Part shown: one piece after another, positions 9,229 to 63,168 of the stretch
How positions within the stretch are numbered: position 1 is the stretch's first letter
How the letters are laid out: every line of letters begins with the position of its first letter
From: Paraspadella gotoi
Taxonomy: Eukaryota > Animalia > Chaetognatha
Direction of reading: 5' to 3'
Assembly (NCBI GenBank): GCA_051294375.1
Contig: JBJCIZ010000239.1
Coordinates: forward strand, 5,723,074-5,787,073
DNA: 64,000 nucleotides
Notes under the pieces: generated by a model
The model's input: the letters and a program-made list of their open reading frames with translations, nothing else
Databases searched by the model: none
What the model was told of the DNA's origin: nothing
Made by a program: the position numbers and the translations under genes

Positions 9229-18068
<8,840 letters not shown>

Positions 18069-20986: not shown

Positions 20987-21141
20987 TGTGGAGGATAAAA
21001 AAGAACGAAACGTACCAAACCCTTTTGTCCGCTAGTCTATCCCCGTGGCTGCCTAGCAGTTTTGTGGGAAGCGGGGCGCTTTACCCCTCAGCAGCGTGGA
21101 GCCTTGTCCGAACCTCAGGAACTGTTAATTTATGAACAGTT
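20987..21141 (-). mobile_element. Diverged family-C copy
   Basis: GCTGCCTAGCAGTT...GGGGCGCTT...GCCTTGTCCGAACCTCAGGAACTG aligns to 56220-56300. Confidence 0.55.
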
Positions 21142-25033: not shown

Positions 25034-25267
25034 TGAAGAGACAGTAATTATTGTTATGAGTTAGTGATAGAACCGTTCAATATAAGCAGTCCCTGAGCTT
25101 CGGATCAGGCTGTAACACCATGTTACAGGCGAGTTAAGCGCCCCGTCCCTCTTAACTGCCAGACGACCACCGGGCTAGAACCCCGGACCTTTGGGTTGGG
25201 AGGCGAATGACTTGCCTCCGGCACCAATGGCCGCTGATGAACGGTTGGTGGATTTTAGTCCACCATA
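25034..25267 (+). mobile_element. Family-C solo-LTR-like element (TG...TA, 4-bp TSD TATT) with internal tRNA-like cassette on the minus strand
   Basis: TATT|TGAAGAGAC...GTCCACCATA|TATT. The reverse strand reads GCGGCCATTGGTGCCGG...GGTTCTAGCCCGGTGGTCG. Confidence 0.8.
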
Positions 25268-26751: not shown

Positions 26752-27810
26752 TTTTGTATGTAGTCCTATGGAAATGTCTTTTCCCTTTTGTATGTAGTCA
26801 TATGGGAAATTGGGTTGGGTTCCCCTTTTTGTGATGTTAGTTCGTATGGAAATGGCTGTTCCTTTTTGTATGTAGTCCTATGAAAATGGCTGTTCTCTTT
26901 GTATGTAGTCGTATGGAAAATGGCTGTTCCTTTTGTATGTAGTCTAATGGAAATGGCTGTTCATTTTGTATGTAGTTCGTATGGAAATGGATGTCCTTTT
27001 GAATGTAGTCATATGGAAATGGCTGTTCCCTTTTGTATGTAGTCGTATGGAAATGGCTTGTTCCCTTTTTGTATGTAGTCATTATGGAATGGCTGTTCCC
27101 TTTTGTAATGTAGTCGTATGGAAATGGCTGTTCCCTTTTGTATGTAGTCGTATGGAAATGGCTGTTCCCTTTTTGTATGTAGTCATATGGAAATGGTTGT
27201 TCCCTTTTGTATGTAGTCGTATGGAAATGGTTGTTCCTTTTGTATGTAGCATATGAAAATGGCTGTTTCTCTTTGTATGTAGTCGTATGGAAATGGTTGT
27301 TCCCTTTTTAATATGTTAGTCATATGGAATGGCTTTTCCCTTTTGTATGTAGTCGTATGGAAATGGCTGTTCTTTTTGTATGTAGTCATATGGAAATGGC
27401 TGTTCCCTTTTGTATGTAGTCGTATGGAAATGGCTGTTCCCTTTTGTATGTAGTCATATGGAAATGGTTGTTCCCTTTTGTATGTAGTCGTATGGAAATG
27501 GTTGTTTTCCCTTTTGTATGTAGTCATATGAAAATGGCTGTTTCTCTTTTGTATGTAGTCGTATGGAAATGGTTTGTTCCCTTTTGATGTAGTCATATGG
27601 AAATGGCTTTTCCCTTTTGTAATGTAGTAGTATATATGGAAATGGATGTTCCCTTTTGTAATGTAGTCATATGGAAATGGCTGTTTCCCTTTTTTTCTTG
27701 GGGTTAAATTGTAGTGCATATTTGGATAGATATGGTGTTCCCTTTTGTATGTAGTCATACGGAAATGGCTGTTCCCTTTTGTATGCAGTCGTATGGAAAT
27801 GGCTGTTCCC
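26752..27810. repeat. Minisatellite, ~34-35-bp unit, ~30 copies
   Basis: TCCCTTTTGTATGTAGTC(G/A)TATGGAAATGGCTGT head-to-tail with no unique spacers. Confidence 0.95.
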
Positions 27811-28135
27811 TTCTCAATTTTTTTCAATGAGGGTTAGGGACGAGGGTTTAAGGTTTCAAATTAGAGATAAAGTTTGAGGTTTAGGGTTTAAGATAAGGTT
27901 TTGGTTCAAGATTAGAATTAGGTATAAGCTTTAGGGGTTCGGTAAAAAGTTATGAGAATTTGTGAAATTGCTACGACCGATATAAAAATTATCCATTCAT
28001 TTAATAAATAAGCTAGCTTGCCCTTGGCTTTGGACAGGCTTTGGTGGTTTAAGGCCTTCATAACTCTTACAAGCTAATGACATAGAAGTCTCTGCAAGCT
28101 TTCAGTCGTTTTCAATCGTTTTAAATATTTAAGTT

Positions 28136-28384
28136 TGTGGCAGCAAGACTTAAAGCTGCCTCACTGCCTCAGCTTCGTCTCAATGGCTGAGCAGGCTAAA
28201 TCATCTCATTCCATCCGTGCGTCCCGGGTTCAATCCCTGGGTATCCCGGTTCTGGCTTAAATGTGACGGTGCCGGTATAAACATGCCAGTGACAGGAGGC
28301 GGTCACTGAGGGTCCGCAGCCCCTACGCCAGTTGGTGAGATACCCCGCGCCCCGGGTATCACAGGCTATCCTCCCGTTGCCATA
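28136..28384 (+). mobile_element. Family-A solo-LTR-like element with tRNA-like A/B boxes, TSD AGTT
   Basis: AGTT|TGTGGCAGC...GTTGCCATA|AGTT. TGGCTGAGCAGG is A-box-like and GGTTCAATCCC is a B box. Near-identical to 48960-49216. Confidence 0.85.
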
Positions 28385-32855: not shown

Positions 32856-33090
32856 TATGGTTGACTAAAATCCAACAATCGTTCATCAGCGACCGTTGGT
32901 TCAGGAGGCAAGTCATTCCCCTCCGCAACCCAAAGGACCGGGTTTCTAGCCCGGTGGTCGCCTAGCAGTTAAGAGGGCTGGGGCGGTTAACCCGCCTGTA
33001 ACACGGTGTTACAGCCTGATCCGAAGCCCAGGGACTGCTTATATTGAACGGTTCTGTCACTAACGCATAACAATGATTACTGTCTCTTCA
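32856..33090 (-). mobile_element. Family-C solo-LTR-like element
   Basis: Reverse complement of 25034-25267. Flanks ACAA/ACAC match at 3 of 4 positions. Confidence 0.85.
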
Positions 33091-39582: not shown

Positions 39583-39726
39583 TGAAGAGCCTGTAACTAC
39601 GGTTATGTGTAAGTGACAGAATAGTTCATTATTAGCAGTCGCTGAGCATCGGATCAAGCTGTAACACCGTATTACAGGAGGGTTAAGCGCCTCTGATGAA
39701 AGGTTGGTGGATTTTAGTCCACCATA
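39583..39726 (+). mobile_element. Family-C element with the tRNA-like cassette deleted
   Basis: TGAAGAG start and GTCCACCATA end. GTTAAGCGCC is joined directly to CTGATGAA. Confidence 0.7.
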
Positions 39727-41514: not shown

Positions 41515-44500
41515 TCAAGTTCCATCCCGACGCCTCTCCACTTCCCCCACGACGGAGATCAACGCCTCCGGCTTCAGCCAATGACGGGATCGTCCCCCAA
41601 CGCTGCGCCGTCGTGCAGAGAAGCGTCAGGGAGGCGGCGCGGGCGTTCCTAACACCCACGCCTTCCAAGATGGCGTCCTTAGATAGAGGGCGGCGCCGCT
41701 GGTGGCGCTACAGTAGGTCGAGACCTCCCCGATCGATGGATAACGACAATCGAAAGTCGGTCTGAAAAAAAAACAAGTTTGAGCAAACAATGTCGAATCT
41801 GCCTACGATAATTTCGCGGTAATCAGTTAAACAGATGATAATCACGATAATTCTTTGTGATCTCTACAGATCATAACAGATCATAACAAAACAAATCATA
41901 ACAGACTTATTAATAAATCGATGAAAATATCTATCAATCAATTGAACAATAAGTAAAAGAACCTGTGGCTGCGCTTTTAGCGGATTAGACTGAACTTTTA
42001 CTGCAGCACAATTAATATTTTATAATTTAAAAAAATATTTTATCAATAAATATAATATTTTAAACATTTTGTTCATTATTTTTTCTTGCATAATTTTTTT
42101 TTAATTTACAAAATTTTTTTTAACTTGCATTATTTTTTCAACTTATTCAGCCAATCCATCATTTTATCTCAGTGAGAGAGAGAAACATTAAAATTTTAAA
42201 AAAATTCAAGTAAAAGTAATGTTTGCTTTTTTCAATTTAAACTCATTTCCAATGGCACGATTCCATCAAAACTTCAGTTCAATCAGTTCAATCACCTACT
42301 TTCCCACACGCACACTAAATTTAATCTCTATCCATTTATCTAATTATGAGTAATTAGAGTAATTATGAAGTAATATAAGCAAAAAGATTTAAGTAAACCT
42401 GACTTATGATTTTTTCCATTTAAACTCATTTCCACTAGTACGATTCCATCAAAACTTTATATCCAGCTCAATCACACAGGTTCCTACCCAACCACAAAAT
42501 TTCATTCCAATCCAACCATCCAATCACAAGTAATTGGAGTTATTTGCTAGGGTGGGACAGACGGACTGAAGAGAAAAGGCCGGGACCGACGGAGATGGCC
42601 AGATTTGACCCGTTCGACCGATTGACCGATCGACCGGACCGGGACTGACCTGACTCTCTCTCCTCTCTCCCTTTCCCTCTCTCTCTTTTTTTCTATCTCT
42701 CTCCAAACCTTACCTGGACAGACTTTGACAAAACCAAGATCTGTGGATAAGGCGCTACGTGGGCTGAAGAAGACTATCCGTAACTTCTATAACCCCCTCT
42801 AGCAGCCATGGAACGGGTCCCTGGGCTTGGAACCAGGCTTGAGGGTTTGCCATGCCCCCAAGGCGGCTTACGGCCGTCCTCACGCTTCCCGCAGGGTAGG
42901 TACCGGGTTGGGATTGAACCTGGTACCTAGTGGTCATGAGCTGATGGCTGATTCTAGGCGGGGTGAACCTAGGCAATGCCCGACTACAGATCAGATTCAC
43001 TGGATCACTCTCTAGAACGCAAACTACTTTCTTACAAAGTTTTCTACTACGTTGTTACTGAAGATTCCTGATTCCTGATTTCTCTACGACATTTGATTCC
43101 TCTTTGATTGATCTCAATTTTTTCTACGGATTTCGTCTCGTCTTTTACAATTTATTATTTACATTTCGAGCTTCAGTTACATAAAACGTTTTGGGATTCT
43201 TTTCGTCAAGACTAAGTTGCGGCCAAGTGGACCATTCTCACCTCAAGAGGCGCAGAGAGTCAAGCTTCTCTACACGGACGGACATCTTTTTTTTTTTTTT
43301 TGCATAATTTATCATAATTCGATATTCTGACAAGAAATAAATTAATGACCGACAATATTGAGGATGTGGACCGACGGACCGACAAAGTGGATTATAGAGC
43401 CGACTAAAAAAATAAAATCAATTAAAGTTAAATACCTACTTCCATTGTTGATACAATTGGATCAAAAAATAAAATAACACAATCTTAAAAGTATAATAGT
43501 AGTTAAACAACATCATTGCAACTTTCAAAAATAGGAAGATCATGAAATCTATGTACCAGATACACAAACGAATGGAACAAAACAACTTTTTTGCTCAAAT
43601 TTTAAATCTTTTTGATTAATAGAATTAAAGTCAAAACAAAGGAGAACTTTATATTAGTCAGTCTCTGTCAGTCGTAGAGAATTGTTTTAACACCAGTAAA
43701 TATTGTTATCGATATATGGCATCTATCATATATCATCAATTCATCATTATGATAAAGATCACACACTTTACACTCTTGCTTTTTATGTCCCCAGACGTCT
43801 AAAAAACTAAAACCTTATTAAAAAAAAAAAAAACAACACAATTTTTTTCCCCTTTTCAACCTGGATAAGGTAAATACGGCCTCGTTGCTTGGCAACACCA
43901 TCGCGGCGTCCTCCAATCGCGGCCCGAGATTCGGCAACGGACGCAGTGACACGAGATCCACGTCGCAAGGAAACGGCGTCGCGCGTTTCACCGTCAACGC
44001 CGCCGGCGTCTTAGTATCGGCCTGGTCAGGGATTATTAGGTTATTAGGGTTATGGTTTTAAATCCAAAATTGAGAATTAGGGTTTGGATCATAAAGTAGG
44101 TGAGGGTTAGAATAGATATAGATTAGGATTTAAAAAAATAGGGTTAAATCTAAGGGATTATGGTCCAGAAAAGGGCGCTTTTTTTTAAAAAAAAAAGAGA
44201 GAGCCGCAAATAGAACGTACGAACATTTTCTTTTGATTGATTGACTTAATTGATTGATTGTTTTATTGATTTGGTTATTTTACTGATTCGATTTGATCAG
44301 ATTTATTTACTGATTCGATTTGATCAGATTTATTTACTGATTAGAATCTATCAGATTTATTTACTGATTCAATTTTATCAGGTTTTGTTACTGATTTGAT
44401 TTGATCAGATTTATTTACTGATTCGATTCGATGAGATTTATTTACTGATTCGATTCGATGAGATTTATTTAGTGATTCCATTCGATGAGATTTATTTACT

Positions 44501-45683: not shown

Positions 45684-47283
45684 AAATAATAATAATAATA
45701 ATAATAATATTATAATAATAATATAATAATAATATTTATATAAATATTAATTTAATTTTATAATATAATATAATAATATTAATATATATATAATAATAAT
45801 AATAATTTTTATAAATTATATTAATGTACCCAAATATACTAATTTACTACTAGCTGCTATTTTTTTTTAATAAGATTAGTTTGTTTTTTATTAAAAATAT
45901 GTCTAGGGTTTAAATTAATTTAATGTCAATGTTATACAAAGTTTTATATTTTAAAAAAGATTTATAGTTTAAAAATTTATTCCTTAAAATATTCAATTTT
46001 TTTAATTTAAGAATTAAATTTAATTTAATTTATTATCAATTTGTTTGAATTTATTGTAAATAATGTTTCTCTTCTTAATTTTAGCAAATTAGATCATAAA
46101 ATTGTCTGCTATATTTCTGTTTTAAAGCTATTTTCGTTAATTAAAAATTGCCTACTTTTATTCAGTTAACTACTAGGTAAACAAACAAAAAATTGTCTAT
46201 TACCTATAAGAAAATATCTTTACCTAAGTTCTATCTTCCAACCTCTTTCTTTTGTTATCATTCTATCCAACCATCCTTCTCTCCCACTATCTTTTTATCC
46301 TTCAACCCTAACAAACCCTTTGAGCAAAACGCGGTTGGTGATGCGAAGGGATCGACGCAACACAGAGTCTTCGCAGGATTGAGGCGATAAAGAGGACAGC
46401 TCGCCGTCCACCCTCCGCCCTCCCACCATTTCTACAAAGTGCTCGATCATGGGAAACACGACTCTGACCGTCGTCACCAATGGACCCGCAATGATCACGG
46501 CCATCAGCGGTGAAGAACTTTTATTTGCAAGGCCCGAAGGTTGGAATAGATACGCGCCGCCTCTGACTGACGGATACCACAAAAACCTATAAGAGATAAA
46601 CTTCTCAACTTTTGTCTGTCTGTCTGTTTGTCCGTCCGTCCGTCCGTCCGTCCCACCTTAGCAAAAAACACCAATTAATTGTGATTGGATCGATGGATTA
46701 GAATTAGATTTTGTGTGTGGGTAGGGAAGTGTGTGATTGATCCGGATATGAAGTTTCGATGGAATCGTGCGAGTGGAAATGAGTTTAAATGGGAAAAACA
46801 AAAAAATATATTTCACTATTTGAATGCCAATTACTCGTGAGTGGATGCGGCGATTGACTTGATATTTTGTATATGGGTAGGAGAGTGTGTGATTAAGCTG
46901 AAAATCAATTTTTGATGGAATCGTCTGAGTGGAAATGAGTTTAAATGGAAAAAGCAAAAAACCTGTTTCACTAATTAATTATGCCTTTTTTCCTTTTATA
47001 ATAAGTGTAAATGCAAGATGTATTAATTAATCAAATATTAGTCAGTTTATTAATCAATTAGTCAATTAATTAATCAATAATTTATTAATCAGTCAATTAA
47101 TCAATCAGTTAATTATTCAATCAATCAATTTATTTATATATTAATTAATTATTCAATCAATCAATTTATTTATTAATTAATTAATTATTTAATCAATCAA
47201 TCAAGTCAATCGTTATCGGCATTATTGTCATCGTCGCCATCATCGTTGCTTTTGTCGGGTCAAGAGCGTTTATATTGTTTGGT

Positions 47284-47333
<50 letters not shown>

Positions 47334-50300
47334 AAACGAAATAAAAACATGATGTTGCGATTGCAAAATGATAACATGCACAAATGCGATGCCTAATTTT
47401 ACGAGTTGCAAAATGATGCAAAATGATGCAAGTTGAAAAAATGAAGCGAATTGTAAAAATAATGCAAATTTAAAAAATTATGTGAGTTGAAAAAATGATG
47501 TGTGGAAAAAATGATGCGAGTTGAAAAATTCATGCGAGTTGAAAAAATGATGCGAGTTAAAAAAATTTTTACAAAAATTGTGATTTATCATCTGATTAGC
47601 TGATTACCGCTTAATTATCGTAGGCAGATCCGACATTGTTTGCTCAAACTTGTTATAAAAATTTTATTAAGTTTTAGATTTAAAAAAAAAAAAATTCAAA
47701 TCATTTTAGTTACGTTATGGGATTGTTCGTGTAGTCTTCTAGAAATAGAAGGAGCATCTTTATAGGTTGTTTATGCTCATTGTATATCTGTAGTATATAA
47801 ATTAACATTCTGTTACTGCAATTTACGATCTCTTTCAGTAGTAATTAATATTTTGTATTCGTCAAGTAGGTATATTAATTAGTTCAGCTAAGTGTGCTAT
47901 TATTCAGGAACCCGGGATTACTCCCTCTTACAAACCCTATTTGCGCCACGAGATTCGACCGTCCCTCCGACGTCGCTACGATCATTCGTCTCAACAGCCC
48001 CCGGGGCCAGTCGAATTCGGCCGCTAGACAACCGTTGGTCAGCGTGATGCGGCTTCTGACGGGCCAACGGTTCAGGGATATGGGAAACTCGGTTGATTTA
48101 TTTGTGAGTTTTTCGTGGCCGACATCGTTTAAAACGGTAAGAGCAGCTAAGTGAAACTTGGAAACGTTCTCTCTCGATGAGGACGTGATAATGGAATGAA
48201 TGTACAGCCTCTTTATTTCAAAAGGTTCCATCTCTGCTTCGAAGACCAACTCATAGAGACCCGCCTGAGGTTTCCCTAGATTTGACCAGACCGGGTCGAT
48301 CTGGTGGCGCAAGATCTTCGCCGTCGTCTTAACTTCGACGTCAAACCGATTGATCCGCAGTCGAATTATCTCCCGTCGTGCAAAGGGAAGCGCGTTGGCC
48401 AATATGATAACAGTAATAGAGGGAGCCAAGCCTCGGATGTCCACGATGACGGGTTCCACTCCCACCGACTTTTGATTGGCCAAAAGGGTCACTCGAAGCG
48501 GCTCATCAACATCGCCTCCTTCCCGAAAAGTCCTTGATTCCATAAGCGACCAAACGGCCCCCACCAGCGCCCTCTGCGCCTTGACGAAACCTTCACAAAG
48601 GCGTCGCGCAATGTCGGCGGCATTGTGTTCCTTGGAAGTGCCGGTAACATCGTCGTGGTGTTGGAAAAGGGCGAGCTCTTGATGGGCGGAGCGGAGATCT
48701 TGAAATTCGCGGACCTGTGGTCGGGTAATGCAGCCAGTTCACCCCGCCCTTAAGCATGACACCTTCGGTTATGACCCCGATTGTTTATTGAGTAAATCTC
48801 ATAAGGTACCGGCATCGATACCCAAAGGTAACTAACTACCCAATGGGAAGCGTGAGGACACCCGGAATCCAACCAAGCCTGGTTCCAAGCCCAGGATATA
48901 TGTTCCTTTACTGGTGACTGGTGAGGGTCGTTAAGCGAGTTAAGGATGATTTATCCATGTGTGGCAGCAAGACTTAAAGCTGCCTCACTGCTGTCCGTCC
49001 TCAGCCTCGTCTCAATGGCTGAGCAGGCTAAATCATCTCATTCCATCCGTGCATCCCGGGTTCAATCCCTGGGTATCCCGGTTCTGGCTTAAATGTGACG
49101 GTGCCGGTATAAACATGCCAGTGACAGGAGGCGGTCACTGAGGGTCCGCAGCCCCTACGCCAGTTGGTGAGATACCCCGCGCCCCGGGTATCACAGGCTA
49201 TCCTCCCGTTGCCATACATGTACCTTTTTGTCACGGCGTGAGGGAGGACCGTCGCGGGCGCCGGCAGCGAGAGTGAAGAATACATCGGCTGCGCGGAGGA
49301 GGGACTCGAGGCGGCGGCCGAGGACTTTCCAAGCCATTCGGGAAGTGAAGTAGCTGCGGAAGAAGAATGGCCTTTTTTTTTTTTACAAAAATGCCTCATT
49401 TCGTCTTTAATTTAGATTTAGTTCTTCAGCATTAACCTTAAAAGGCTAAGGATTTAATTAAAGATTTGGTTAGGGATAGGTTAAGAGTAGGGGGAAGTGA
49501 AAGTTTAGTTTAGTTTAGCAGTTATATCTTGAAAACTATCCTATTGGTGAATACTAATCTGTAATTATTTTTTTTTTTACAAATATGGTAGCCTGGTCAG
49601 CTTATTTTATATATAGTATATTATTACCCTTATATAATATTAAAATTTCAAAATAGTTTATTTTTAAATTCTAAGAACAGATTCAGATTCCTTGTTAAAA
49701 GTTGATAAAGGAAAATATAAATCTTTTTCAAAAATTATGTCATTAAAAAGGTTAAAATTACAAAAAACTATATTTTGAAACTAAAAATTGAAAATCGGAG
49801 TCTTAAATATAGTTTTTTACATTTTTGACCAACTTAATGAAAAATTTTTTAAAAAAGAATTATACTTTCTTTTATCAACTTTTTGCAAGAAATCCAAATC
49901 CGATCTTAAATTTAAAAAAATTGTATTTTAAAATTTTAGCTTATTATACAGGGTTCGGACTTAAAACTTACCCCCATAAGAAAAATTATTATTTACTTTA
50001 ATTATTTGTACTTAATGATATATCTGAAAAATTTAGTTTTATCAATTATTTGATTGGTCATTTTAGTACATGTTTACCTTATGTCAGCTACTCGTTTATG
50101 AAGTATACCTTACTTAGGACCCTTCCAAAGATGAGTAGACGATATGAAAAATTCTTTACATTTTTGCTACCATTGTATATTCAATAATGGGTCAAGATTG
50201 ATGTAATTCCGGTTACAAGTACTGTTGAGTGTTACATTTAATTCGCCCCATACTGCAATACCCAAATGATTTTAGATTTTGCATTATATGGGGCATAATG

Positions 50301-53300
50301 CCCTGAGGCCAAAATTTAGAGAAATTATATTAAAAAAAATCTTACTTTATACTAGTAGCTGAGCATATTATATTGTATAAATAATATAGATATACCTCAA
50401 ATTACTGCAGCATACTGCAGCTTTAATTTTCTTTTAAGAAATAAAATTATAAAGTACTAACTGATTTATATTGTGTGCTATACAGTTTTGGCTTATGCTA
50501 ATAATTTGATTTTTTGGTTGAGAATTCCTTTTAAGGTATTTTAATAGCGCACAAGGTACAAATTTTTTATCTCATTAACTACAAAAGTTAGATGAAAGTT
50601 ATCATTACAACTTTTTGACATTTTAATAATTTATCTATGATAATTAACAAAAACTATAAAATTTAATGAATGATGATGATGATGATTTTTTAAGGGTTTT
50701 TCAAATTTTAGCCCATTTATCATTACATTTTTTTAAATTTGTAGTAATAACCTTTATCTAACTTTTTAATCTTTATCAGAATTCATTTAAAAAAATTTAA
50801 ATTTCCTAAAAAATTTTTTAAGCATTTCTTATATATTGTTAAATATTAATATGCTTCCATGAGGAAAATTAATTTAATCAAAATTTAACATCATAAGTCA
50901 ATTTGGTTGTAAAAAGACAAAATACTTTTATCGCAGACTTTTTCATATTGTAAAAAAATGTTAAATTCTGGCCCGCCTTACTACTTACCCACTCCAATAA
51001 TCGTCGTCGAAATCACTGTATGTGAAGAAATCTCCGCCAAATATCTTCAGCTGAGAAACCTCCCCCAAGTCCTCGTCAGCCATTTGAAAGTATTCCGACA
51101 GTGTCCCGAACTTAGCCGTCGCGCCCATTTCCTCAGAGCGGGCATTGATATAATTGAAGATCTTGTTCCAGTTTTCAAACTGCCGATCAAACTGAGATGA
51201 TTGAATGAAGCGAAAATCATCGCCAAATATCACCAGCACAACATTGTGCTTAAACCACAGCGACTTTTTTCTAAGTTGATCAAGCAGCTTGATTGCCTGA
51301 TCATGAATGTTTACAGGCCCAATGGTTGGTGCTGAATTTGGTCTCCAAAAATCATATTCTACGCAAATCCAATAGTAAGGGCCGCAAGAATGTTTGATGG
51401 TGTAGGTATAGAGAGGGTTCAATGAAACCCGAAGATCGTCAATGCCCTCAACATCCCACTCTTGGCGCCAAACAAACTCAGCGTCTGCATTTTTATCCAA
51501 AAACTCTTTTATCTTGTAGTGGATTCGATTTATGAAGGAACGCTTGAGACCAGCTAATGATCTAATCCTAGCCGCTGTCGCTGAATGACCAAAAGGGTCA
51601 ATGTTAAAGCTCGTCTTTGGCGCAAATCCCAATTTTTGTCTGAGAAAAAGATGGCCTTCCAGCATCTGGTCAATGAGCGAGTAGACTGTGGGGTTAGCTT
51701 CGTCCGGCATTACCCAACCTCCACCAACGATCTCAAATCGGCCCTCCTTTATTGGCATGATTTTTTTTAAAAGCGCCCCCCTGTTTGTTCCATAATCTTT
51801 AAATCTATATTTAATCCTAATATCTAACCCTAATATTTAACTACCCCGTGTCCGTTCGAGAGTGACACCAAAAAAATCTTTACTATACTTTAAATATTTA
51901 GTAAACATAATTCATAAGTATATCATTAGTTGCAGAACTACTTGAAGTTTGTTATGTATAAGTTTCATTTCGTTTTTAATTTACTATTCTTTGTTTAATT
52001 TTTTATCTAACACAGTAAAATTAGCAAAAAAAGACAATTTTAGGCGTGTTCTTGATTGAATTTTAAAAATATTTTATATCATAAGAAATCCCTATTAATG
52101 GTCTAATCAATGAATTATCGTAATGTTGAGTAATTTTTCAGTAATGATTTTTCATTGATTTTTTTAATTGTTAATCTTAAGTTTTCTTTATACAATTCGT
52201 CCAATTAGAAAAAAATGCTATCCTGACCATGTTCTTGACTGTTTTGAATAATTATTTTATATTGTAAGGATTCCCAGATAATTATTAATTTAATGGCGTA
52301 AATGAATTTTAATAATTTTAAGTATTTAATGAATAATAAATTTATAATGATTTTCTTTTTTTAAAAGATTCAGTTCTTTACTGAAGATGAAATTGGATGA
52401 CCATATTTAAGGAAATATCAAATTAATCTTATGAAATTAAAATATAATAAACGTCAAGTACTTTGCTACAGAATGAAGAAAAAAAATTTAAAAAATATTT
52501 ATCCAATGAGAAATGGTACGCATTTTTTTGGTGTCACTCGCGAACCCTACCCTGAATCCCTCAACCTGTACAGTAGGGTGGATTGATGAAAAGATTGAGT
52601 GATTGAACATTATTTTTTTGCTGCCTATGGACATGTAAATAATAAATTTTAAATCATTTTAAAAACAATTTTAACATAACATATAGTAAATTCAATTATT
52701 TATGTAGTAATATCCTTATAAAATCGTTAAATTTTAAAATTTTTATTTTTATTTTTAAGAACAGATTTGGATTCGCCGTAAAAAACTAAGAAACTTTTAT
52801 AAAATATGTCATATGATATTTTAATGTTTGGATCACAAAAAATGACTAAAACATTTTAACATATATAAGTTTCTACAACAAAGAATAAAAAAGTCATAAA
52901 TTTTAACCTTTTTTCCGGTTTTAAACGCTGATGATGACAGAATTTTTGATAAGATGTTTTATATTTTTGATTCAACTTTTCATAAAGAATCTGAATCTTT
53001 ATAAAAAGTTTTTAAAAATTTTTTTTAAAAATTTATTATTTTATAAGAATATTACTACAAATTTATTATATTTTACTATTCTGTTCCCGAGACAATATGA
53101 ATAAAATATTTTTTGTACTAGTTAATCATAATATCTCACATCTAAATATCCTTGTTCGATCATTCAAATAAATTTTTTTGTTCTTGAGTGTTCCACTCTA
53201 CTATACAGAACCCTAATCCCTAATATAGTCCCCAGCAAATTCCTAACTTTAAACCCTATCCATAATTTTTAACCTTATCGCCTAACTTAACTTTAGACAT

Positions 53301-53873
53301 AACAAGTTTGAGCAAACAATGTTGGATCTGCCTACGATAATTAGGCGGTAATAAGCTAATCCGATGATAAATCACGGTAATATTTTCTGACTTTCATAAC
53401 AAATTGTAACATAACAAATTATAACAGACTTCTTAATAAATCTATAAATCAATTGACCTATCAATCATTACCATTAGCTGCGCCAATACCAACTTGCATA
53501 ATTTAGTCAAATTGCATAATTTGGTAATTTTGCATAATTTTGTCAATTTGCATAATTTGGTCAGATTGAATAATTGCATAATTTAATTAAGTTGCATTAT
53601 TTGGTAAACTGGTATAATTTGGTAAACTGGCATAATTTGGTCAACTGGCATAATTTGGTCAACTGACATAATTTGGTCAACTGGCATAATTTGGTCAACT
53701 GGCATAATTTGCTCAACTGGTATAATTTGGTCAACTGGCATAATTTGCTCAACTGGCAAAATTTTGTCAACCGGCATAATTTGCTCAGCTGGCATAATTT
53801 GCTCAACTGGCATAATTTGGTCAACTTGCAGAATTTGGTCATTTGAATAATTTTGTCAACTTCCATAATTTGG

Positions 53874-53906
<33 letters not shown>

Positions 53907-56900
53907 CAGAGAGAGATAGAGAGAGGGAAACTTTTAAAAATTAAAATAAATGTGTCTTTTAGTTTTCTAATTTAAACTCTTTTCCACTTTCATTTCCTTT
54001 TATCTATCAAATTTTTAATGAATTTAATAATTATGAGTAAATATAAGTAAAAATACTTCAAGTAAATATAACTTTTGTTTTTTTCATTTAAACTCGCGCG
54101 ATTTCTTCGAAACTTTATATCCACCTCAATCATACACTTTCCTACCCACACAGAAAATTTCATTCCAATCCAATCCAATCACGAGTAATTAAAGTTTAAT
54201 GAAAAGTTGGGACGGACCGACAGACAATGTTCTGATATGATAAAAATTATTTACCGACAAGATTTTGGGGTGGGACCGACGGACCGACAAAGTGAATTAT
54301 ACAGTAAGGCGTAGTAAAATTTCTAAATTTAACTTTAATTAAAATTTTAAAAGTGAGGAACGAACAACATTATACTAATGAACATTTATGTATAAAAAAA
54401 ATTTTAATAAATTTTACAATTTACGCAGTAGGCTATATTTATACTAGTACTAATGCAATAAATGTTAAAATTTTAAAACAGTTTTTTCTCAGATTTTTTT
54501 GCAGATTTGTATTCGTCATAAAAAGTTGATAAAAAGAAATATAACTCTTTCTGAAAAATTGGAAAAACCTATATTTTAAGCTGAAAATTCAAATTTTATA
54601 TATTAATATTTAATTTTTAACCAACTTAATGAAAGAATTTTTAAAAATGATTTATATTTTCTTTTCTCAACTTTTGACGAGGAATTCAAATCTGCAATCA
54701 AAATTAAGAAAAGCCTATTTTGAAATTTTTCGAATATATAAAAATACTATTCTAAGTTTTGATTCACTATCCTGTAGAGTCGAGATCTGCTGATAAGCAG
54801 ATCCGACTAAAAACTAAATCAACCTAAAATTTAGGCTGAAATGGGGCGCTTTCGGAAAATATGATCCCTTGATTAAAGTTTTCATCATGTCGCGCATCGT
54901 CGTGTTTGCAATATCCCACCACCAGGAAAGGTAAATCGACTCGGCCCAGATGAAAGTCAATTTTTTATATTGATGGAGTTTGACAACCGCGTTGGTGATG
55001 ACGTGAAACGAGTCCTCGAAAGCAGGGGGCGTGTAAAGAAATGGCGACTCCTTCCCTCCCCACCACAAATGATTTGGTGGGCTGCCTTTAAAAGGCAAAG
55101 TGATATCAAGACCCCTCTATTAGCAAAGAAAATTGCTATAGAATAGATCAAGTAATTATAGACTTAAAATTAACATTATTTGAGTCGGTATTTTGCTTTC
55201 CCATGGAATCGCGATTTTAAAATTATCAAATAATTTTTTTTTTTATGTAGACTGATAAAAATTATCTCTCTCTTAACGGCCTCTTCTTTTTGGTTTTTCT
55301 TTGTTTGCGCTATACATTGGAACCATGAAAACAAAAAAAGTTGACCGGAATATGACTCACAAGAGCGATCAAATGATAACTAAAAAATTATAGGAACTTT
55401 TCAGATAAAATCGATTTTAATCATATATTTTAGATAATTATAGTATAAATTTTTAAATAGTATAATAGTTTTTATCATTATTAATATTTATTTCAATAAT
55501 ATTATTAATAATAACATTATTATTATACTGATTGAATTTAATTAAACTTGCTTATTAACCTATTTATTCGTAAATTTTTTTGTTATTTGGCTTAACCTTA
55601 ACCCTATCTCATATTAAATGTGGCCAGTCAGTTTAGCCTTTTTAACTTAAAAAAGTTTTATTAAACAAACTTTTATAATATTTAATATAAGAGGCTAATA
55701 AGTAATAATTCATTCCAATCCATCCATCCAATCACGAGTAATTGGAGTTTTTTTTTCTAAAGTGGGACGGATGGACGAACGGACGGACAGACAGACGGAC
55801 GGACATCGTTCTTTTGTATAATTTATCATAATTCGATGTTCTGACATGATTTAAGTGAATGCCCAACAAGATTGAGGGGGCGGACCGATGGACCGACAAA
55901 GTGAATTATAAGCAGATCCGACTAAAATATTGCTTATATTGAACGGTTCTGTCACTAACACATAACAATAATTACTGTCTCTTCATTGGTGAGCCCGACT
56001 TCCGAACAGAACAGCAACAACAACACTTTCAGGCGACATGCCTCAACCTGGCGATGCACTTTCCGCCAACAACAATTCACAGAAGAGACGCAACAGACTT
56101 CTTCCTACAGGAGGGGGGGATGTATGGAGGACTAAAATCCACCAACCGTTCATCAGCGGCCATTGGTGCCGGAGCCAAGTCATTCGCCTCCCAACCCAAA
56201 GGTCCGGGGTTCTAGCCCAGTGGTTGCCTAGCAGTTAAGAGGGACGGGGCGCTTAACCCGTCTGTAACACGTTACAGCCTGATCCGAAGCTCAGGGACTG
56301 CTTATATTGAACGGTTTTGTCACTAACACATAACAATAATTACTGTCCAATGTACTGTCCAATGTATAGAGCAAACAAAAAAAAAATTAGAAGAGGTTGT
56401 TAAGAGAGAACTAATGTGGTTATTGATTTTTGGTAGATCTATTGATTATCGCAGGATAACAGTATGAAATTGGTACAACCAAAATAAAAATTATCTATTC
56501 ATTTAATAAATAAGCTATCTTGTCCCTGACTTTGGACAGGCTTTGGTAGTTTAAGGCCTCCATCACTCTTACAAGATAATGACTTGGCAGGTCCTTGCAA
56601 GCTTTCAATCAAGACTCTCTCACAGTCTCGTTTATTCACTCCCAAAGTACCTGGCTTCCCTATCAATGAAGTGGTATAATATTTCAAAGAATGTTTCAAT
56701 TGTATGAAAAGACCACTCTCTCAAGTATTAGATCGGGGAATACTTATTGTACTCCGCACTAGCATCAAAATACAAGGAGCTGAATTTTATGATATTGGTA
56801 CAACCATTATAAAAAATATCCATTTATTTAATAAATAAGCTATCTTGCCCTTGATTTTGGGCAGGCTTTGGTGGTTTAAGGCCTCCATCACTCTTACAAG

Positions 56901-57475
56901 ATGAGATTTTTTTGTGGAGGTTCTCAACCCCTCTACACGCCCTGCGTCAGACCCTCTACACGCCCCTGCCTCGAAAAAGTGTTCCGCGGCCGTCTTGTGC
57001 CATCCCGGGTCCGTGTGTGAAAAAGGCACGAGAACGATACGCAACGGGTCATCCCGCCGTCGCGAATCGCTGTAGTTCATGTCAACTTTGTCCCAGTCTT
57101 TATCTCCGCCCCCGCGTCCAGGCATTCGAAGTGACTCGTAAAGTCGAAGGCTTGAAATGTCGACGGAGGCTTTGCGTAGATCGTTGGAGCATTTCATCGA
57201 TTCCTCCTAGACCATTGAGGAAATTTATTTGAAGCAAATAGACCGGGCATTGTAAACTACTCTTTACTGTATATGCTAAATTGAGGTCCCCTTTAGGCTT
57301 TACTCTTAGTTACCCGTTTGGCGACCTTGGTTAAACTGGAATATCCGTCATTGGCCAGAGGAAAATTCCATAAGCAATACCAGTAGACTAGGAGGAACAG
57401 TAGGAAGGTGAGAAGCACCCAGCGATAGTAAATCTTGATTCGGAGGAGCATTAAAACGAATCTTGAGCGAATCAT
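41515..57475 (-). CDS. MAN2A: Golgi alpha-mannosidase II (GH38, MAN2A-like); exons 57475-57314, 57206-56970, 55014-54868, 51746-50989, 49353-49224, 48714-47936, 46586-46317, 45576-45453, 44962-44615, 44021-43861, 41761-~41515
   Basis: N-terminal type II anchor. Motifs VPFSHTDPGW, FIWAE, EIVGGGWVMPDEA, IDPFGHS, RIHY, GDDFR, YWSGYFTSR, LFQHHDDVTGT, GAYLF, QANFYPM, DRRLHNDDSRGMGEGV. The last exon has apparent indels. The symbol is family-level. Confidence 0.92.
42742..42988. mobile_element. Family-B solo-LTR-like element, intact, TSD GATC
   Basis: GATC|TGTGGATAAGG...CCCGACTACA|GATC, 247 bp. The reverse strand carries GGTTCAATCCC and GGTTCCAAGCCC T-arm-like hairpins. Confidence 0.88.
44280..44580. 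repeat. Minisatellite, ~27-bp unit
   Basis: TTTACTGATTCGATTTGATCAGATTTA repeated. Confidence 0.9.
45010..45396 (+). mobile_element. DINE-1/HINE-like Helentron-associated repeat
   Basis: GGAC/AGAC microsatellite, core TTTATCATAATTCG...GACAAAGTGAATTATAG, and 3' hairpin AGTCGGAATCTGC-TGATAA-GCAGATCCGACT plus an A run. Further copies at ~42240-42570, 43270-43410, 46615-46970, 54030-54300, 55710-55925 and 60590-60950. Confidence 0.65.
46588..47932 (-). mobile_element. TG...TA element (TGTAAGAG/CTCTTATA), TSD GGTT, coextensive with intron 46587-47935
   Basis: Minus strand: ATA G GGTT TGTAAGAG ... CTCTTATA GGTT TTTG TGG. Confidence 0.75.
48716..49220 (-). mobile_element. Family-B-related LTR-like element filling intron 48715-49223, with family A nested at 48960-49216 (TSD CATG)
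   Basis: Ends CCCGACCACA|GGTC on the minus strand. Shares GGAAGCGTGAGGACA and CAAGCCTGGTTCCAAGCCCAGGA with 42742-42988. Confidence 0.82.
51843..52554. mobile_element. Nested MITE
   Basis: GTTCGAGAGTGACACCAAAAAAAT ... ATTTTTTTGGTGTCACTCGCGAAC inverted repeats around an AT-rich interior. Confidence 0.7.
52569..53205. mobile_element. Nested Tc1/mariner-like MITE
   Basis: TA-CAGTAGGGTGGA ... TCCACTCTACTA-TA. Confidence 0.5.
53490..53878. repeat. Minisatellite, 18-bp unit
   Basis: CATAATTTGGTCAACTGG, about 20 copies. Confidence 0.92.
55022..56969. mobile_element. TIR element (GCAGGGG(G)CGTGTA.AG) with perfect 7-bp TSD TTTCGAG, coextensive with intron 55015-56969
   Basis: Minus strand: TTTCGAG|GCAGGGGCGTGTAGAG ... 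CTTTACACGCCCCCTGC TTTCGAG|GAC. Confidence 0.85.
56123..56347 (-). mobile_element. Family-C element (tRNA-like cassette on + strand, ~56156-56227); partial second copy at 55931-55986
   Basis: Reverse complement of 25034-25267. Confidence 0.85.
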
Positions 57476-59770
57476 CGCAACGGAGACGAATAGTTTATTT
57501 GGTAGCGGAAGTGGTTAAGTTTATAAAAAGGAAATCGATTGTTTTAAAGATTTAAAAAAAAACTTTACAGGAGTTTTCTACGTCCATTTTATTCGAGAGA
57601 GATATTGATATTGAAAAACGAAAGTGCAAGCTTTGGGCTAGGACTTAAAAATGCCCTAAAAAGCTACCTTATCTTATCATTTGTAATTATTGACGGTTTT
57701 CTTGAGTTTTAATAATTGGTACTGAACAACTGAACGATTCTAATTTTCTAGTGGACAATAGGCATGGGCTCTTTCTAACTTACAATTTAAGCAGACTTTT
57801 TTGTTGGAAATCCGATGCCACCCCAACAAGCGTTCTATAAAAACTATTAATCGCAATGTTTTTTTAAGATACTATCAAATAATGAGTTAGTTTTTATAAT
57901 TTGTTTTTTTCTTTGTACCGATATATTTTGTATGTATTCGGTAAGTGGGATCATGCCGGCAGCATCCAAGGCAATATTTTAATCTATATGAATTATTGAA
58001 TATCTATCGAGTAGGAAACTTATGAAAGACTTTAATTGCTCGTAATTGTAATTTATAAAATTTTCCCAGTGATAAGAACCAGCAGATAAAAAACATGGTG
58101 ATGAATACAAAACCAATGAAACAACAAGTGATGAAAATAGTTGATGAACTAATTTAAAATTATATCCTGTAATATAAAGAGAAATTATATTAATTGCTAA
58201 TATTTTCGACTTTGCTTTAAAAAATAAGTCATTGATATGGGTTGTCCATGTAAGTTTCTGGTCAATTGTACATTAAAGCGTAGCAAAAATATTAAAATCA
58301 AGTAGAATCAAAATCAAAATCAAAATCTTTTTTTTAAATAAAAAAAATAATTTTTTGTCATTTTTCGCTTACGCCCATATTTATACATGAAATTGGTACA
58401 ACCAATATATAAATTATCCATTCATTTAATAAATAAGCTATTTTGTCCGTGACTTTGGACAGACAGGCTTTGGTGGTTTAAGGCCTCCATCACTTTTACA
58501 TAACATTACTCTTAATGATTGAATTTTTTAGGTTTCTTTACTGCCCCCATTACTCAAGGCATAAAAGGTCATTATTATCATGTCACTACGTACAGATTAT
58601 CTCTACCCTTTATGCCACCTGCATTCTGAATTTTCTTTGTTTCCCTTTCAAATGTATTAAATAAAAAAAAATATTTGAGAGAACGATCAGCATGTTTTAT
58701 TCGACAGTTTATGAAATACAGCTAGCAGTGTAAATAATTTCATTTAACCAGTGAAATTTTTTTTTATTAAAAAAAAACCAAAATTTTAATTTTAATGTTT
58801 TTCATCGGAAAAAAACTTATGTGCAGTTAAATGACTTGAAAGATTTTCGCGTCATGTATTCCAAAAGCCATCAGTTTGAGTTTATACTTTATCGTACAAA
58901 ATTTTAGCTTTGTTAAAATTATTGGGCGGCCTCCTGTTGACAGACGTTTCGAAGTGTCAATACTGTGAGGTAGTTACTTAATTGGAAGAGAACAACATGC
59001 ATTCTCTCTTTCCCTCTCTCTCTCTCTCTCTCCCTCCCTTTTCTTAGTTTCTATAATCTCCTTTTTTGGTTACGTTTCTCTTCACTAACAATAAAAAACA
59101 TATTTTTTAGAATTTCAATCAGGAAGTGAATTTCTTTTCCGTTTATATTATTATGTTTATAACATCAGACAGCGGCTCCTTCTCGGTTATCTTTATTACT
59201 TTCTCGTTTGCGGAGAAAAAAATAAAATTTTGAGTAAATATAGGAGAGAAAAAAAGAGAGAAAAAGAATATGATATCAAGGTTAACATAGTTTTGTAGCA
59301 TAAAACAAAACTTTGTCGAATATTTATAGACCTTTAAAATACCTGGTATTCACTAAAATCTGTAACTATATAAAAAAAAGAAAGAATAAAAAGAAAAGAA
59401 AAAAAAGAAAGAAAATTTGGCCCAAAAAAAATCAAGGAAAAAGCACGTTCTCCGCAGAGGAATAAGGAGGAGTAAAAACTATTGCAATTCCATTGGGAGA
59501 AGGAAGAGGAAGAAGATAAAGAATCTAGAATGAAAAAAAAAAAAAGAGGCAACTAATTTGGGCGAAAGGGAGAAAGGGGGAGAGAGATGGAGAAATAGAG
59601 AGTGTACGAGGGAAAAGAGGAAAATTTAAGAAGAAAGACAATGAGAAGAGAGGAAAAAAAACATTAAGGGGAGAGCAGAGAGAGAGAGAAAAGAGAAAGA
59701 CAGACAGACAGACAATCAGAGAGAGAGAGAGAGGGGGAGGAAGGAGAAAGAAAGAGAGAGAGAGAAAAAG

Positions 59771-60171: not shown

Positions 60172-60572
60172 GGTTGTGGATATCTTTGTGGACATCGTTG
60201 TGAACATCGTTGTGGATATCTTTGTGGACATCGTTGTAGATATCTTTGTGGACATTATTGTGAACATCGTTGTGGATATCTTTGTGGACATCGTTGTGAA
60301 TATTTTTGTGGATATCGGTATGTTGACTATCTTTGTGGACATCTTTGTGGACATCGTTGTGGATATCTTTTGGAGGACATCGTTGTGGATATCTTTGTGG
60401 ACATCTTTGTGGACATCGTTGTGGATATCTTTGAGGACATCGTTGTGGATATCTTTGTGACATCATTGTGGACATCGTATGTGGATATCTTTTTTTTTTT
60501 TTTTTTTTTTTTTCTAAGACATCGTTGTGGATATCTTTGTGGACATCTTTGTGGACATTGTTGTGGATATCT
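60172..60572. repeat. Minisatellite, 12-bp units (GTGGATATCTTT / GTGGACATCGTT)
   Basis: Direct tandem array. Confidence 0.92.
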
Positions 60573-61386
60573 TTTTTTTATTGCTTAAAATTGCAGATTC
60601 CGACTCTATAATTCACTTGGTCGGTCCGTCGGTCCCACCCCAAAATCTTGTCGGTCAATAATTTATATCATATCAAAAGGATCATTATGATAAATTATGC
60701 AAAAAAAAAATGATGTCCGTCTGTCCATTCGTCCGTCCGTCTTTCTGTAGGTCCGTCCGTCCCCCCCTTATCAAAAAACTCCAATTACTCGTGATTGGAT
60801 CGGGAGAAACGTGTGTGATTGAGCTGGATATAAAGTTTCGAATAGTTTATCATAATTCGATGTTCTGTCAATGATTTAAGTCAATGACCGACAACATTGT
60901 TGGGGGCGAACCGACGGACCGACAAAGTGCTGATAAGCGGATCTGACAAATAATATTCCTTAACTTCCAAGAACGACGGAGACTCCTCGCTCTCCCGCGG
61001 GACTTTTGCTATAAAAAGTGAAAGTTTTCTCGAAATATGTCTTCTCTTATAAAATGGTCTTTTTTTCTGTAATCGGGTATTGTCAAACTAACTAATGCTT
61101 GAGCAAAAAAATGTCAATACCCTGAGTAAATACAAGGTGAATATTATTAGAAACCAGCGGTTTTATAACATTAAATTTGTCATTTTTTTTTCATTCAACT
61201 TGTGATTTTTCTATTTGTAATTCAAACACAACGAAAGAAACTGATTCTCCTCCTCCTCCTCCTCTTCCTCCTTCCTATCCTCTTTGGTCTTTATTTTCTC
61301 CTTATCTATCCCCTTCTTCTATCCCCTTCTTCTATCAAAACAAATCTTTTCCCCTTGGCCTCTATCTTTAAGAGATATTCTTCCTC

Positions 61387-62033: not shown

Positions 62034-63168
62034 TTAATTAATTAAGGGCAAATATTCATGCTTGTCCATGGGCCTCATGTAGTCCTTTCCCAGCAACACC
62101 TGCAACATCTCGACAATCTTCTCGTCCTCGCACGGCACGTGCACCAGGAAACCGTGGAGATCGGACGAGCAGACCCGGACGGTAAAGTCGTAGGACAGGA
62201 CGCCTGTACTTTGCGAGACCGTGCCATGGGGTCGCCCCGAGGCCACGAGCCAAACGTCGGTGGACACGTTCGCGATTCTGTATCTGTAGAAAAATCCGTT
62301 GTTCCCGTATTCGGGGAGATTCGGGTCTTTTTCTTCGACGCTGTAGTCTCTGGCTTTGACATCGGATCGTGAGGCCCCTAAGCGGATCATCTCTGGAAAA
62401 CTGGGTTGAGAAAGAAAATAGGCCTTGTTTTGCCAAAGCACCCCCCGTTTCGTCTTAAATACGAAATTAAGCCAGTTTCAAGGTTTAAGGATTAAGGTAA
62501 AAGTTAGGGTTAGAGATCAGGTCGGGGATTAGGTTAAGGATTAGGGTTGGGAGTTAGGGTCAAATAATAAGTTAGGTTTTGGGATTAAGGCTGGGGATTA
62601 GGGTTAGGGATTGGGTTATTGATTAAGGCTGGGGATTAGGGTTAGGGATTGGGTTATGGATTAAGGCTGGGGATTGGATTATGGATTAAGGCTTGGATTA
62701 GGTTTAGAGATTGGGTTATGGATTAAGGCTGGGTAGGGATTAGGTTATGGTAAAGGATGGGGATTAGGGTTAGAGATTGGGTTATGGATTAAGGCTGGGG
62801 ATTAGGGATTAGGTTATGGATTAAGGCTGGGATTAGGGTTTGGATTGGGTTATGGATTAAGGCTGGGGATTAGGGTTAGGGATTGGGTTTTGGGTTCAAT
62901 AAAACTTTCAGGTTAAACGTTAAAATAAAAATCAAATAAAGAGATGATGTCACAGATGATGCTACAGTTAGACAAAGCTATCTCACTCACTCTTATATTC
63001 TCTCTCTCGCTCTCTCTATCTATCCTCCACTCCCCCTTGCACTCCTCTTACTCACGCTTCGACTCGACTGTATCCAAAAAAGTCCACATCGCTATCTTCG
63101 GGCAAAATGCTGCACTGACGCCACCAACCGAGCAGAGTCCCGCTGCGGAGGAAAGGACGAATACGAAC
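62034..63168 (-). CDS. Fukutin-like / LicD-family phosphotransferase, last two exons (63168-63056, 62400-62034); 5' exons lie in the terminal gap
   Basis: PFLRSGTLLGWWRQCSILPEDSDVD matches the LicD/fukutin GT.LGW.R...IP..DxD motif. VCSSDLHGFLVHVPCE...LLGKDYMRP matches the fukutin C-terminus. The intron is phase-2 GT-AG. Confidence 0.8.
62480..62897. repeat. Interstitial degenerate TTAGGG-like array inside a MITE
   Basis: GGATTAGGGTTAGGGATTGGGTTATGGATTAAGGCTGG units following a GGCC...CCCCCCGTTTC TIR-like end. Confidence 0.7.

What the first reader, a model, noticed from the sequence alone, without database searches (positions are those of the whole stretch)
48712..49224. A solo-LTR-like element forms a whole GT-AG intron (GGTN TSD plus terminal CA)
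Seen on the minus strand: AAA AA-GGTA-[element ...CCCGACCACA]-GGTC-CGC. The donor GT comes from the left TSD, and the acceptor CAG is the element's terminal CA plus the first G of the right TSD, so splicing restores AAG GTC. A free relative with an ordinary GATC TSD sits at 42742-42988, and a second element (family A, CATG TSD) is nested near the donor end. The left TSD and terminus have diverged (GGTA CATGG versus expected GGTC TGTGG). Inference: any TG...CA/TA element with a 4-bp TSD that lands on GGTN becomes a frame-neutral intron. This integrase-type route differs from TIR introners, and I do not know it as well described.
Basis: partly seen in the sequence, partly recalled or inferred. 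Interest (0 to 1): 0.88.

Follow-up and report, generated by a model that had tools for sequence, protein, structure and literature searches.

The report
Ribozyme-bearing retroelement became an intron
A 509-base intron that is cleanly spliced out of a sugar-trimming enzyme gene in what is likely an animal consists end to end of two small mobile elements, so it was likely created when one of them landed in the exon; mobile elements making introns this way is already known, but intact relatives of this one carry a predicted self-cutting twister RNA behind a tRNA-like promoter, a pairing we did not find described.

Summary
Bases 49223..48715 (minus) are a GT-AG intron of a GH38 alpha-mannosidase II gene; a transcript contig skips exactly these 509 nt. 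The intron is one old family-B element (154 of 201 aligned bases identical to the free copy, z 12) plus a young family-A element nested after intron base +7. An expressed paralog reads straight through the site in DNA and RNA contigs, so this is most likely an intron gain by insertion at G|GTN. The route is not new: solo LTRs, and LTR elements that co-opt both splice sites, are listed as introners in PMC12130899. 'Solo LTR' is unproven: no two-LTR copy, PBS or PPT was seen, and no genome was held. Two other introns of this gene also look transposon-made (7-bp TSD, TIRs), one with a GG donor.

The parts
49224..49353 (-). GH38 alpha-mannosidase II exon upstream of the intron, ends ...DKK
48715..49223 (-). 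509-nt GT-AG intron, phase 0, spliced
   Evidence: (X9 contig skips 509 nt)
49221..49224 (-). left copy of the inferred 4-bp target duplication (GGTA); supplies the GT donor
   Evidence: 3 of 4 letters match the right copy
48712..48715 (-). right copy of the inferred target duplication (GGTC); first G completes the CAG acceptor
48716..48959 (+). old family-B element, 244 bp, RNA-sense strand opposite to the host gene
   Evidence: single-copy at 80% over most of its length, 42-nt block shared with very many copies
48840..48904 (+). decayed twister-type ribozyme remnant (P4/L4 and L1 kept, UAA and T2 lost)
   Evidence: Rfam Twister-P5 17.6 bits, below 37.6; 36.3 bits, not in the training set
48960..49216 (+). 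young family-A element, 257 bp, tRNA-like A and B boxes at about 49016-49027 and 49059-49069; flanked by CATG at 48956-48959 and 49217-49220
   Evidence: (loose ends at both termini in 31-49 contigs per run)
47936..48714 (-). GH38 exon downstream of the intron, starts VREF...
42742..42988 (-). free family-B copy with GATC duplication, twister-type fold at 42811-42895
16115..16330 (-). 5'-truncated family-B copy inside a FERM-gene intron
28136..28384 (+). free family-A copy with AGTT duplication; 2 substitutions and 8 gap columns from the nested copy
25034..25267 (-). family-C copy (AATA duplication), tRNA-like boxes and the same twister-type fold
56463..56703 (-). family-D copy, best Rfam Twister-P5 score in the window (30.6 bits at 56525-56567)
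55015..56969 (-). another intron of the same gene: GC-AG, perfect 7-bp duplication, terminal inverted repeats
   Evidence: boundaries inferred from protein homology, not covered by RNA
51747..54867 (-). another intron of the same gene: GG-AG, 7-bp duplication (6 of 7), terminal inverted repeats
   Evidence: X9 contig runs from the downstream exon into the upstream exon's letters (tables 7 and 8)

Best explanation
The 509-nt intron is spliced out and is built end to end from a family-B element and a nested family-A element, and it likely arose when B was inserted, likely by a retroviral-type integrase, into the four exon bases GGTN, so that the left duplicate gave the GT donor and B's terminal CA plus the first G of the right duplicate gave the acceptor. 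Removal of element plus 4 nt restores the codons exactly (arithmetic, shown). B lies antisense to the gene, so its predicted ribozyme and Pol III boxes are not in the pre-mRNA (shown); this would have made the insertion harmless (inferred). B then decayed by about 23% at aligned sites, including three bases at the donor end, and A inserted recently at the CATG left there, leaving the first seven intron bases unchanged (order inferred from the identical CATG copies and the 99% identity of A to its free copy). B itself is most likely the solo long terminal repeat of a small non-autonomous retroelement with a tRNA-derived promoter and a twister ribozyme, working like a Helenus TRIM crossed with an LTR retrozyme (inferred, about 0.6).
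For: Splicing. Colinearity of B from acceptor to intron +6, z 12 to 15 against three other B copies. Empty site: a paralog (8 of 42 bases different in the exon) continues past the junction with the same 30 letters in DNA run X6 and RNA run X9; by hand they translate YPSSRRERKV before REF, against GPPSRRDKKV here (tables 7 and 8). Element class: 4 of 6 copies with both ends intact have perfect 4-bp duplications and 2 of 6 have 3 of 4 letters; fixed TG/TA...CA/TA ends; tRNA-like boxes; no run of four T in the A, B or C copies checked. Twister fold over 9 free copies of B, C, D: 91% of 135 cells pair, 8 of 15 pairs change on both sides, including pseudoknot T1 (GGA:UCC, CGG:CCG, UGG:CCA) and T2; slid controls 16-57%. 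A metagenome locus with the same 19-nt core and the same L1 variant passes Rfam's Twister-P5 threshold (L012, 49.6 bits; 1 of 9 loci tested).
Against: The TSD's only informative letter mismatches and B's two terminal bases at the donor end differ from both free copies. The paralog could be a processed copy that lost its introns; its DNA contigs stop 187 and 211 nt beyond the site while its RNA contig runs 979 nt, which fits an upstream intron but does not prove it. No orthologue from another species was available. No two-LTR copy, PBS or PPT next to any of 10 ends or copies examined. Rfam scores are all below the 37.6-bit threshold (17.3, 17.6, 30.6) and family C gave no Twister hit. The 9 copies are three lineages, so the covariation is about three events per pair; P1 has no loop; MFE folding gives no significant z. 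Splicing rests on one run of one study whose RNA status is a tool guess.
Confidence: 0.8

Rival explanations
1. An older intron already stood here; B inserted at its acceptor (GGTC spanning the junction), and a deletion then removed all of the old intron except its first five bases, together with B's two terminal bases.
For: Explains the three mismatches at the donor end in one event; AG|GT on both sides is the ordinary intron context.
Against: Needs a deletion that leaves exactly the spacing expected from a simple insertion; the paralog has no intron here; three changes are unremarkable at 23% divergence, and the 4th TSD letter is free on both sides (intron +3, third base of a Val codon).
Confidence: 0.1
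2. Same intron gain, but B is a non-autonomous DNA transposon of Ginger type or a MITE with very short inverted ends, not an LTR.
For: Ends read TGT(A/G)G...CCACA, a 5-bp inverted repeat; all intact copies seen are single units with no internal region; family A has about 45 contigs per run ending at each terminus with unrelated flanks.
Against: tRNA-like promoter boxes and a conserved ribozyme fold on one strand only make sense for an RNA intermediate; animal Helenus LTRs have the same size range and 4-bp TSD and leave solo LTRs.
Confidence: 0.2
3. Same intron gain, but B is a SINE-like element moved by an RTE or Penelope reverse transcriptase, the known hosts of twister and minimal hammerhead ribozymes in animals.
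For: Twister variants sit at the 5' end of the RTE element Perere-3 (PMC8501958); schistosome SINEs join a Pol III promoter to a hammerhead (PMC6765202); several window copies are truncated.
Against: Both ends are fixed and duplications are always 4 bp where measurable; no tail repeat; the ribozyme is internal, not at the 5' end.
Confidence: 0.12

Closest known systems
LTR-derived introners (Gozashti et al. 2025, PMC12130899; passages and Dataset S2 rows seen)
   Same: LTR or solo-LTR DNA forms a whole intron; splice sites co-opted from the target duplication (P. bracteatum Copia family 'co-opt both'; Polarella solo LTRs; P. virgatum Copia solo LTRs).
   Different: Here one old copy, not a shown family of introns; likely an animal host; the element is a small non-coding unit with Pol III boxes and a ribozyme fold. 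'ribozyme' and 'SINE' occur 0 times in that main text.
Helenus TRIMs (Kojima 2024, PMC10886601; parts 1-4 of 6 and supplement searches seen)
   Same: TG...CA repeats of 120-320 bp with tRNA-like A and B boxes; 4-bp TSD in animals; solo LTRs common; thought to use Gypsy enzymes.
   Different: No internal region, PBS or PPT seen here; 'twister' occurs 0 times in that paper and two twister-core words were found 0 times in its sequence supplement; no intron formation reported in the passages seen.
Plant LTR retrozymes (Cervera et al. 2016, PMC4918200; review PMC7761336; passages seen)
   Same: Self-cleaving ribozyme inside an LTR, 4-bp TSD, solo LTRs.
   Different: Those carry type III hammerheads, have a tRNA-Met PBS and PPT, and are described as lacking promoters; animal retrozymes are described as non-LTR. 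Here twister-type, with tRNA-like boxes.
Type-P5 twister ribozyme (Rfam RF02684)
   Same: Order P5-P2-L1-P1-UAA-P2-GC-(P3)-P4/L4, with both pseudoknots covarying.
   Different: P1 is a self-complementary hexamer with no loop, like the short palindromic stem III of Penelope hammerheads that cleave as dimers (PMC6765202); scores below threshold.
GA/GG donors of Eurytemora affinis (PMC5714493; abstract start and passages seen)
   Same: GG donor after an exon ending in AG, A at +3, at a lineage-specific position (intron 54867..51747).
   Different: That paper has 0 occurrences of 'transpos'; here the GG is the first two bases of an element with inverted repeats and a 7-bp duplication.

Membership tests
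Introner | Element is removed exactly by splicing | tested here: met
Introner | Intron absent from a homologous gene | tested here: met
   paralog reads through in X6 DNA and X9 RNA; retrocopy not excluded
Introner | Many similar introns at unrelated sites in the genome | not testable with these tools
   no genome held; 1 of 32 terminal matches in the window sits on a GGT/GGC/GGG target
Helenus TRIM / solo LTR | TG...CA termini | tested here: met
   free B TG...CA; A TG...TA; C TA...CA; intron B changed at one end
Helenus TRIM / solo LTR | 4-bp TSD (animal type) | tested here: met
   4 of 6 perfect, 2 of 6 with 3 of 4 letters
Helenus TRIM / solo LTR | tRNA-derived A and B boxes in the repeat | tested here: inconclusive
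   pattern match finds both boxes in A and C, only the B box in free B and a degenerate one in the intron copy; ARAGORN 0 tRNAs; Rfam no tRNA hit
Helenus TRIM / solo LTR | Two LTRs around an internal region with PBS and PPT | tested here: inconclusive
   none beside 10 copies or ends in the window, as expected for solo copies; genome-wide search not possible
LTR retrozyme | Hammerhead ribozyme in the LTR | tested here: not met
   no hammerhead hit in Rfam scans; twister-type fold instead
LTR retrozyme | Abundant circular RNA between the two cleavage sites | not testable with these tools
   only contigs of one presumed RNA run were available
Twister ribozyme, type P5 | Rfam gathering score 37.6 | tested here: not met
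   17.3 (free B), 17.6 (intron B), 30.6 (D); no hit for C
Twister ribozyme, type P5 | P2, P4 and pseudoknots T1, T2 with covariation | tested here: met
   T1 96%, T2 89%, P2 100%, P4 81% of cells paired, with two-sided changes in each
Twister ribozyme, type P5 | Closed P1 hairpin | tested here: not met
   six-base palindrome without a loop in 8 of 9 copies, one extra base in the ninth
Twister ribozyme, type P5 | Self-cleavage at U-A in L1 | not testable with these tools
   needs an in vitro assay; the intron copy lacks the UAA and T2 bases
Ginger / integrase-type DNA transposon | Long terminal inverted repeats and a matching transposase gene | tested here: inconclusive
   only about 5 bp inverted; 0 of 13 window reading frames scanned (of 144 listed) hit an integrase or transposase family

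The most novel reading that the evidence does not exclude
This animal harbours several families of Pol III-driven, twister-cleaved miniature LTR retroelements, the first animal LTR retrozymes and the first with a twister that works through a loop-less palindromic P1 as a dimer, and they seed new spliceosomal introns genome-wide whenever they land on GG(T/C/G)N in an exon, tolerated only antisense because the ribozyme would otherwise cut the mRNA.
Probability: 0.3. Interest if true: 0.75.

Novelty: new variant of a known kind. Interest (0 to 1): 0.5.

Why it matters
As an intron, it is a clean, RNA-backed, datable case of intron gain in an animal-like genome, with an empty paralog beside it; the mechanism class is known. 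The element matters more: a tRNA-type promoter plus a twister fold inside an LTR-like unit would link three things studied separately (Helenus TRIMs, retrozymes, eukaryotic twisters of unknown role) and gives a sharp prediction, that such introns are strand-biased. The gene also shows 3 of 4 fully examined introns with transposon-type ends, one using a GG donor, which offers a testable origin for GG donors and marks the genome as worth an introner survey.

Tried and rejected
Whole genome: none held, so no count of introns, no search for two-LTR copies. No RNA holder is listed on record; X9 is RNA by guess. Second read-laying to learn the donor-side terminus of the intron copy's subfamily: no relative at 80% covers 48901-48972, so the original terminus stays open. 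Metagenome scan for the 19-nt core: 27 loci, 0 of 27 with homology to A, B, C or D beyond 24 nt; my model R1 matched essentially only the core in the 20 of 27 loci searched. Group II intron remnant, pistol, hammerhead and HDV ribozymes were considered by eye from recalled motifs; Rfam gave none. MFE folding of four ribozyme regions: z 0.18, -1.19, -1.30, 0.96, uninformative because pseudoknots are not modelled. An apparent inverted exon at 54814-55116 was my misreading and was withdrawn (note 2). The repeat finder did not list the short TIRs of the two other introns among its five longest pairs; they come. The D pair at 56463 and 56784 was examined as a possible two-LTR element and rejected: no PBS or PPT in the 80 bases between. 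Alternative TSD AGGT/AGGT (perfect) rejected because it would cut off B's terminal A. Earlier scan notes: 0 found in 3 look-ups.

Full report
Setting. The window is eukaryotic. The finding lies in a Golgi-type alpha-mannosidase II gene on the minus strand (Pfam Glyco_hydro_38N, Alpha-mann_mid and Glyco_hydro_38C). The 120 best relatives listed are 40-46% identical and those with names are animal MAN2A proteins, so the host is likely a divergent animal. No genome is held.

The intron is real. The minus strand reads GAC AAA AAG|GTACATG...CCCGACCACAG|GTC CGC. In run X9, which the tool guesses is RNA, one contig skips 509 nt here with CT..AC ends on the plus strand and also skips the 1635-nt upstream intron; 0 of 3 DNA runs show either joint. 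X1 and X3 may be the window's own source, so they are not independent. Five exons joined at the inferred junctions give 641 codons without a stop; the stretch from YWSG to FQHHD is 67 residues here against 68-69 in 8 of 9 homologues printed (the ninth did not match the pattern).

The intron is mobile DNA from end to end. Bases 49216..48960 are family A, 257 bp, 2 substitutions and 8 gap columns from the copy at 28136, with CATG on both sides; 31-49 contigs per DNA run break off at each of its ends into unrelated flanks. Without A the intron is 248 nt: GTA, 244 bp of family B, and G. B aligns to the free copy at 42742 at 154 of 201 aligned bases (z 12 against 300 shuffles) and to two 5' fragments at 76% and 81% (z 15, 14), while A and C give z about 1. 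The acceptor-side end matches free B at 9 of 10 bases; the donor-side end matches for 7 bases and then differs at the last two. At 80% identity the copy is unique over most of its length, but one 42-nt block has summed depth 77,000-91,000 against 90 in X1, and its loose ends continue as family B; the tool warns that this is no copy number, but B is plainly abundant and this copy is old.

Empty site. laid a second gene on the downstream exon (8 of 42 bases different; DNA contigs in X1 and X6, a 2037-nt contig in X9). Past the junction its loose letters are the same 30 bases in DNA run X6 and in X9, and translate by hand to YPSSRRERKV, against GPPSRRDKKV in the exon upstream of our intron. The paralog therefore has no intron here. 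Its DNA contigs end 187 and 211 nt on, shortly past where the upstream intron would begin, whereas the X9 contig runs 979 nt; this suggests an intron-bearing gene, but a processed copy is not excluded.

Mechanism. Shown: removing element plus 4 nt restores the codons; the donor lies in the left flank and the acceptor is terminal CA plus G. Inferred: integrase-type insertion at GGTN, decay, then insertion of A after intron base +7. The duplication itself is weak evidence, since G|GT is required by splicing and the fourth letter mismatches; that letter is unconstrained on both sides. The rival, an old intron trimmed by a deletion, needs an exact length coincidence and a loss in the paralog; I give it 0.1.

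What B is. Six copies of A, B and C with both ends intact have 4-bp duplications, 4 perfect and 2 with one mismatch. A and C have tRNA-like A and B boxes, free B a B box. Downstream of them B and C, and the AT-rich family D, share a fold that Rfam assigns, below threshold, to Twister-P5 (17.3, 17.6, 30.6 bits against 37.6; nothing for C). On 9 free copies, 91% of 135 cells pair, shuffles average 74%, slid partners 16-57%; both pseudoknots change on both sides between families. I derived this structure from Rfam's consensus and these copies, and they are three lineages, so it is good but not strong statistics. A metagenome locus with the same core and L1 passes Rfam's threshold (1 of 9 tested). 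P1 is a loop-less palindrome. A model from the 9 copies finds 19 matches at E up to 1 in the window, 15 at E below 0.001, among them the intron copy at 36 bits on the plus strand: antisense to the gene, with the UAA and T2 bases lost. No ribozyme was recognised in A. No PBS, PPT or two-LTR unit was seen.

Comparison with what is known. LTR and solo-LTR introners, including co-option of both splice sites, are in PMC12130899 (passages; Dataset S2 rows; supplementary files 13 and 14 were not searched, and 21 of 52 'Gypsy' places were seen, so animal LTR introners may be listed there). TSD co-option is also in 10.1101/2022.06.06.494994 (passages) and PMC11282704 (passages). The element works like a Helenus TRIM (PMC10886601, parts 1-4 of 6; supplement word searches) and like a plant LTR retrozyme (PMC4918200, PMC7761336, passages), but membership of either is not established: the two-LTR structure is untested and the ribozyme is not a hammerhead. 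Twisters are known from RTE elements (PMC8501958, passages; PMC7761336). Four searches for a twister in an LTR or TRIM, or with a palindromic P1, listed no such paper by title or abstract; subscription journals are not covered.

Context. Two more introns of this gene have transposon-type ends: 56969..55015, GC-AG, perfect 7-bp duplication, inverted repeats of about 13 bp; and 54867..51747, GG-AG, 6 of 7 duplication, inverted repeats of about 25 bp. The X9 contig crosses the second with the upstream exon's letters, which supports a GG donor if that animal has the same allele. The 1635-nt intron is ordinary GTAAGT...CAG, and the FERM gene's junctions looked ordinary by eye.

Verdict. Real feature, intron gain by insertion 0.8; known route; single old case. 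The element is a new-looking variant whose ribozyme activity and LTR nature are untested. Interest 0.5.

Noticed in passing
window 51747-54867 (-): GG-AG intron whose donor is the first two bases of an element with about 25-bp inverted repeats and a 7-bp duplication (6 of 7); crossed by the X9 contig. Possible transposon origin for a GG donor; an assembly error or allele difference at the second G is not excluded.
   Followed up: partly
window 55015-56969 (-): GC-AG intron with a perfect 7-bp duplication ending in AG and about 13-bp inverted repeats; contains nested C and D copies. Boundaries from protein homology only.
   Followed up: partly
window 5042-5112, 16184-16268, 21061-21128, 23600-23664, 25083-25162, 28013-28076, 32962-33041, 39632-39703, 42811-42895, 56228-56304, 56515-56578, 56840-56903, 58438-58505: Thirteen further twister-type motifs in 64 kb, in three families, with a loop-less palindromic P1 in the intact ones.
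   Followed up: partly
public runs X1, X6, X9 laid on window 48670-48711: An expressed paralogous GH38 gene, about 80% identical in this exon, without the intron.
   Followed up: partly
window 46587-47935 (-): Next intron of the gene has ATAG|G at both ends and its acceptor lies right after a (GGAC)n(AGAC)n repeat-bearing element end that recalls Helentron-type elements (recalled, untested); the same repeat family recurs at about 42222-42569, 54002-54305, 55709-55936, 60593-60962.
   Followed up: no
window 48736-48777: A 42-nt block of family B, upstream of the tRNA-like part, is far better conserved across copies than the rest and is missing from the copy at 42742; role unknown.
   Followed up: no
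window about 9000-18100 (-): FERM-domain (protein 4.1-like) gene with ordinary GT-AG junctions; a truncated B copy lies about 25 nt inside one intron in the sense orientation, ribozyme motif intact.
   Followed up: no
window 57979-58272 (-): Short frame that resembles the end of a LINE reverse transcriptase by eye (recalled); Pfam gives only a weak DUF7829 match.
   Followed up: partly
L016 765-1239 region and L013, L020-L026: Metagenome contigs with repeated twister-like motifs about 1.6 kb apart; L016 also has a Hairpin-meta1 ribozyme on the other strand (57.4 bits), as in viroid-like circular RNAs.
   Followed up: no
window 26744-27818, 53490-53877, 60173-60575, 62489-62896: Minisatellite arrays.
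   Followed up: no
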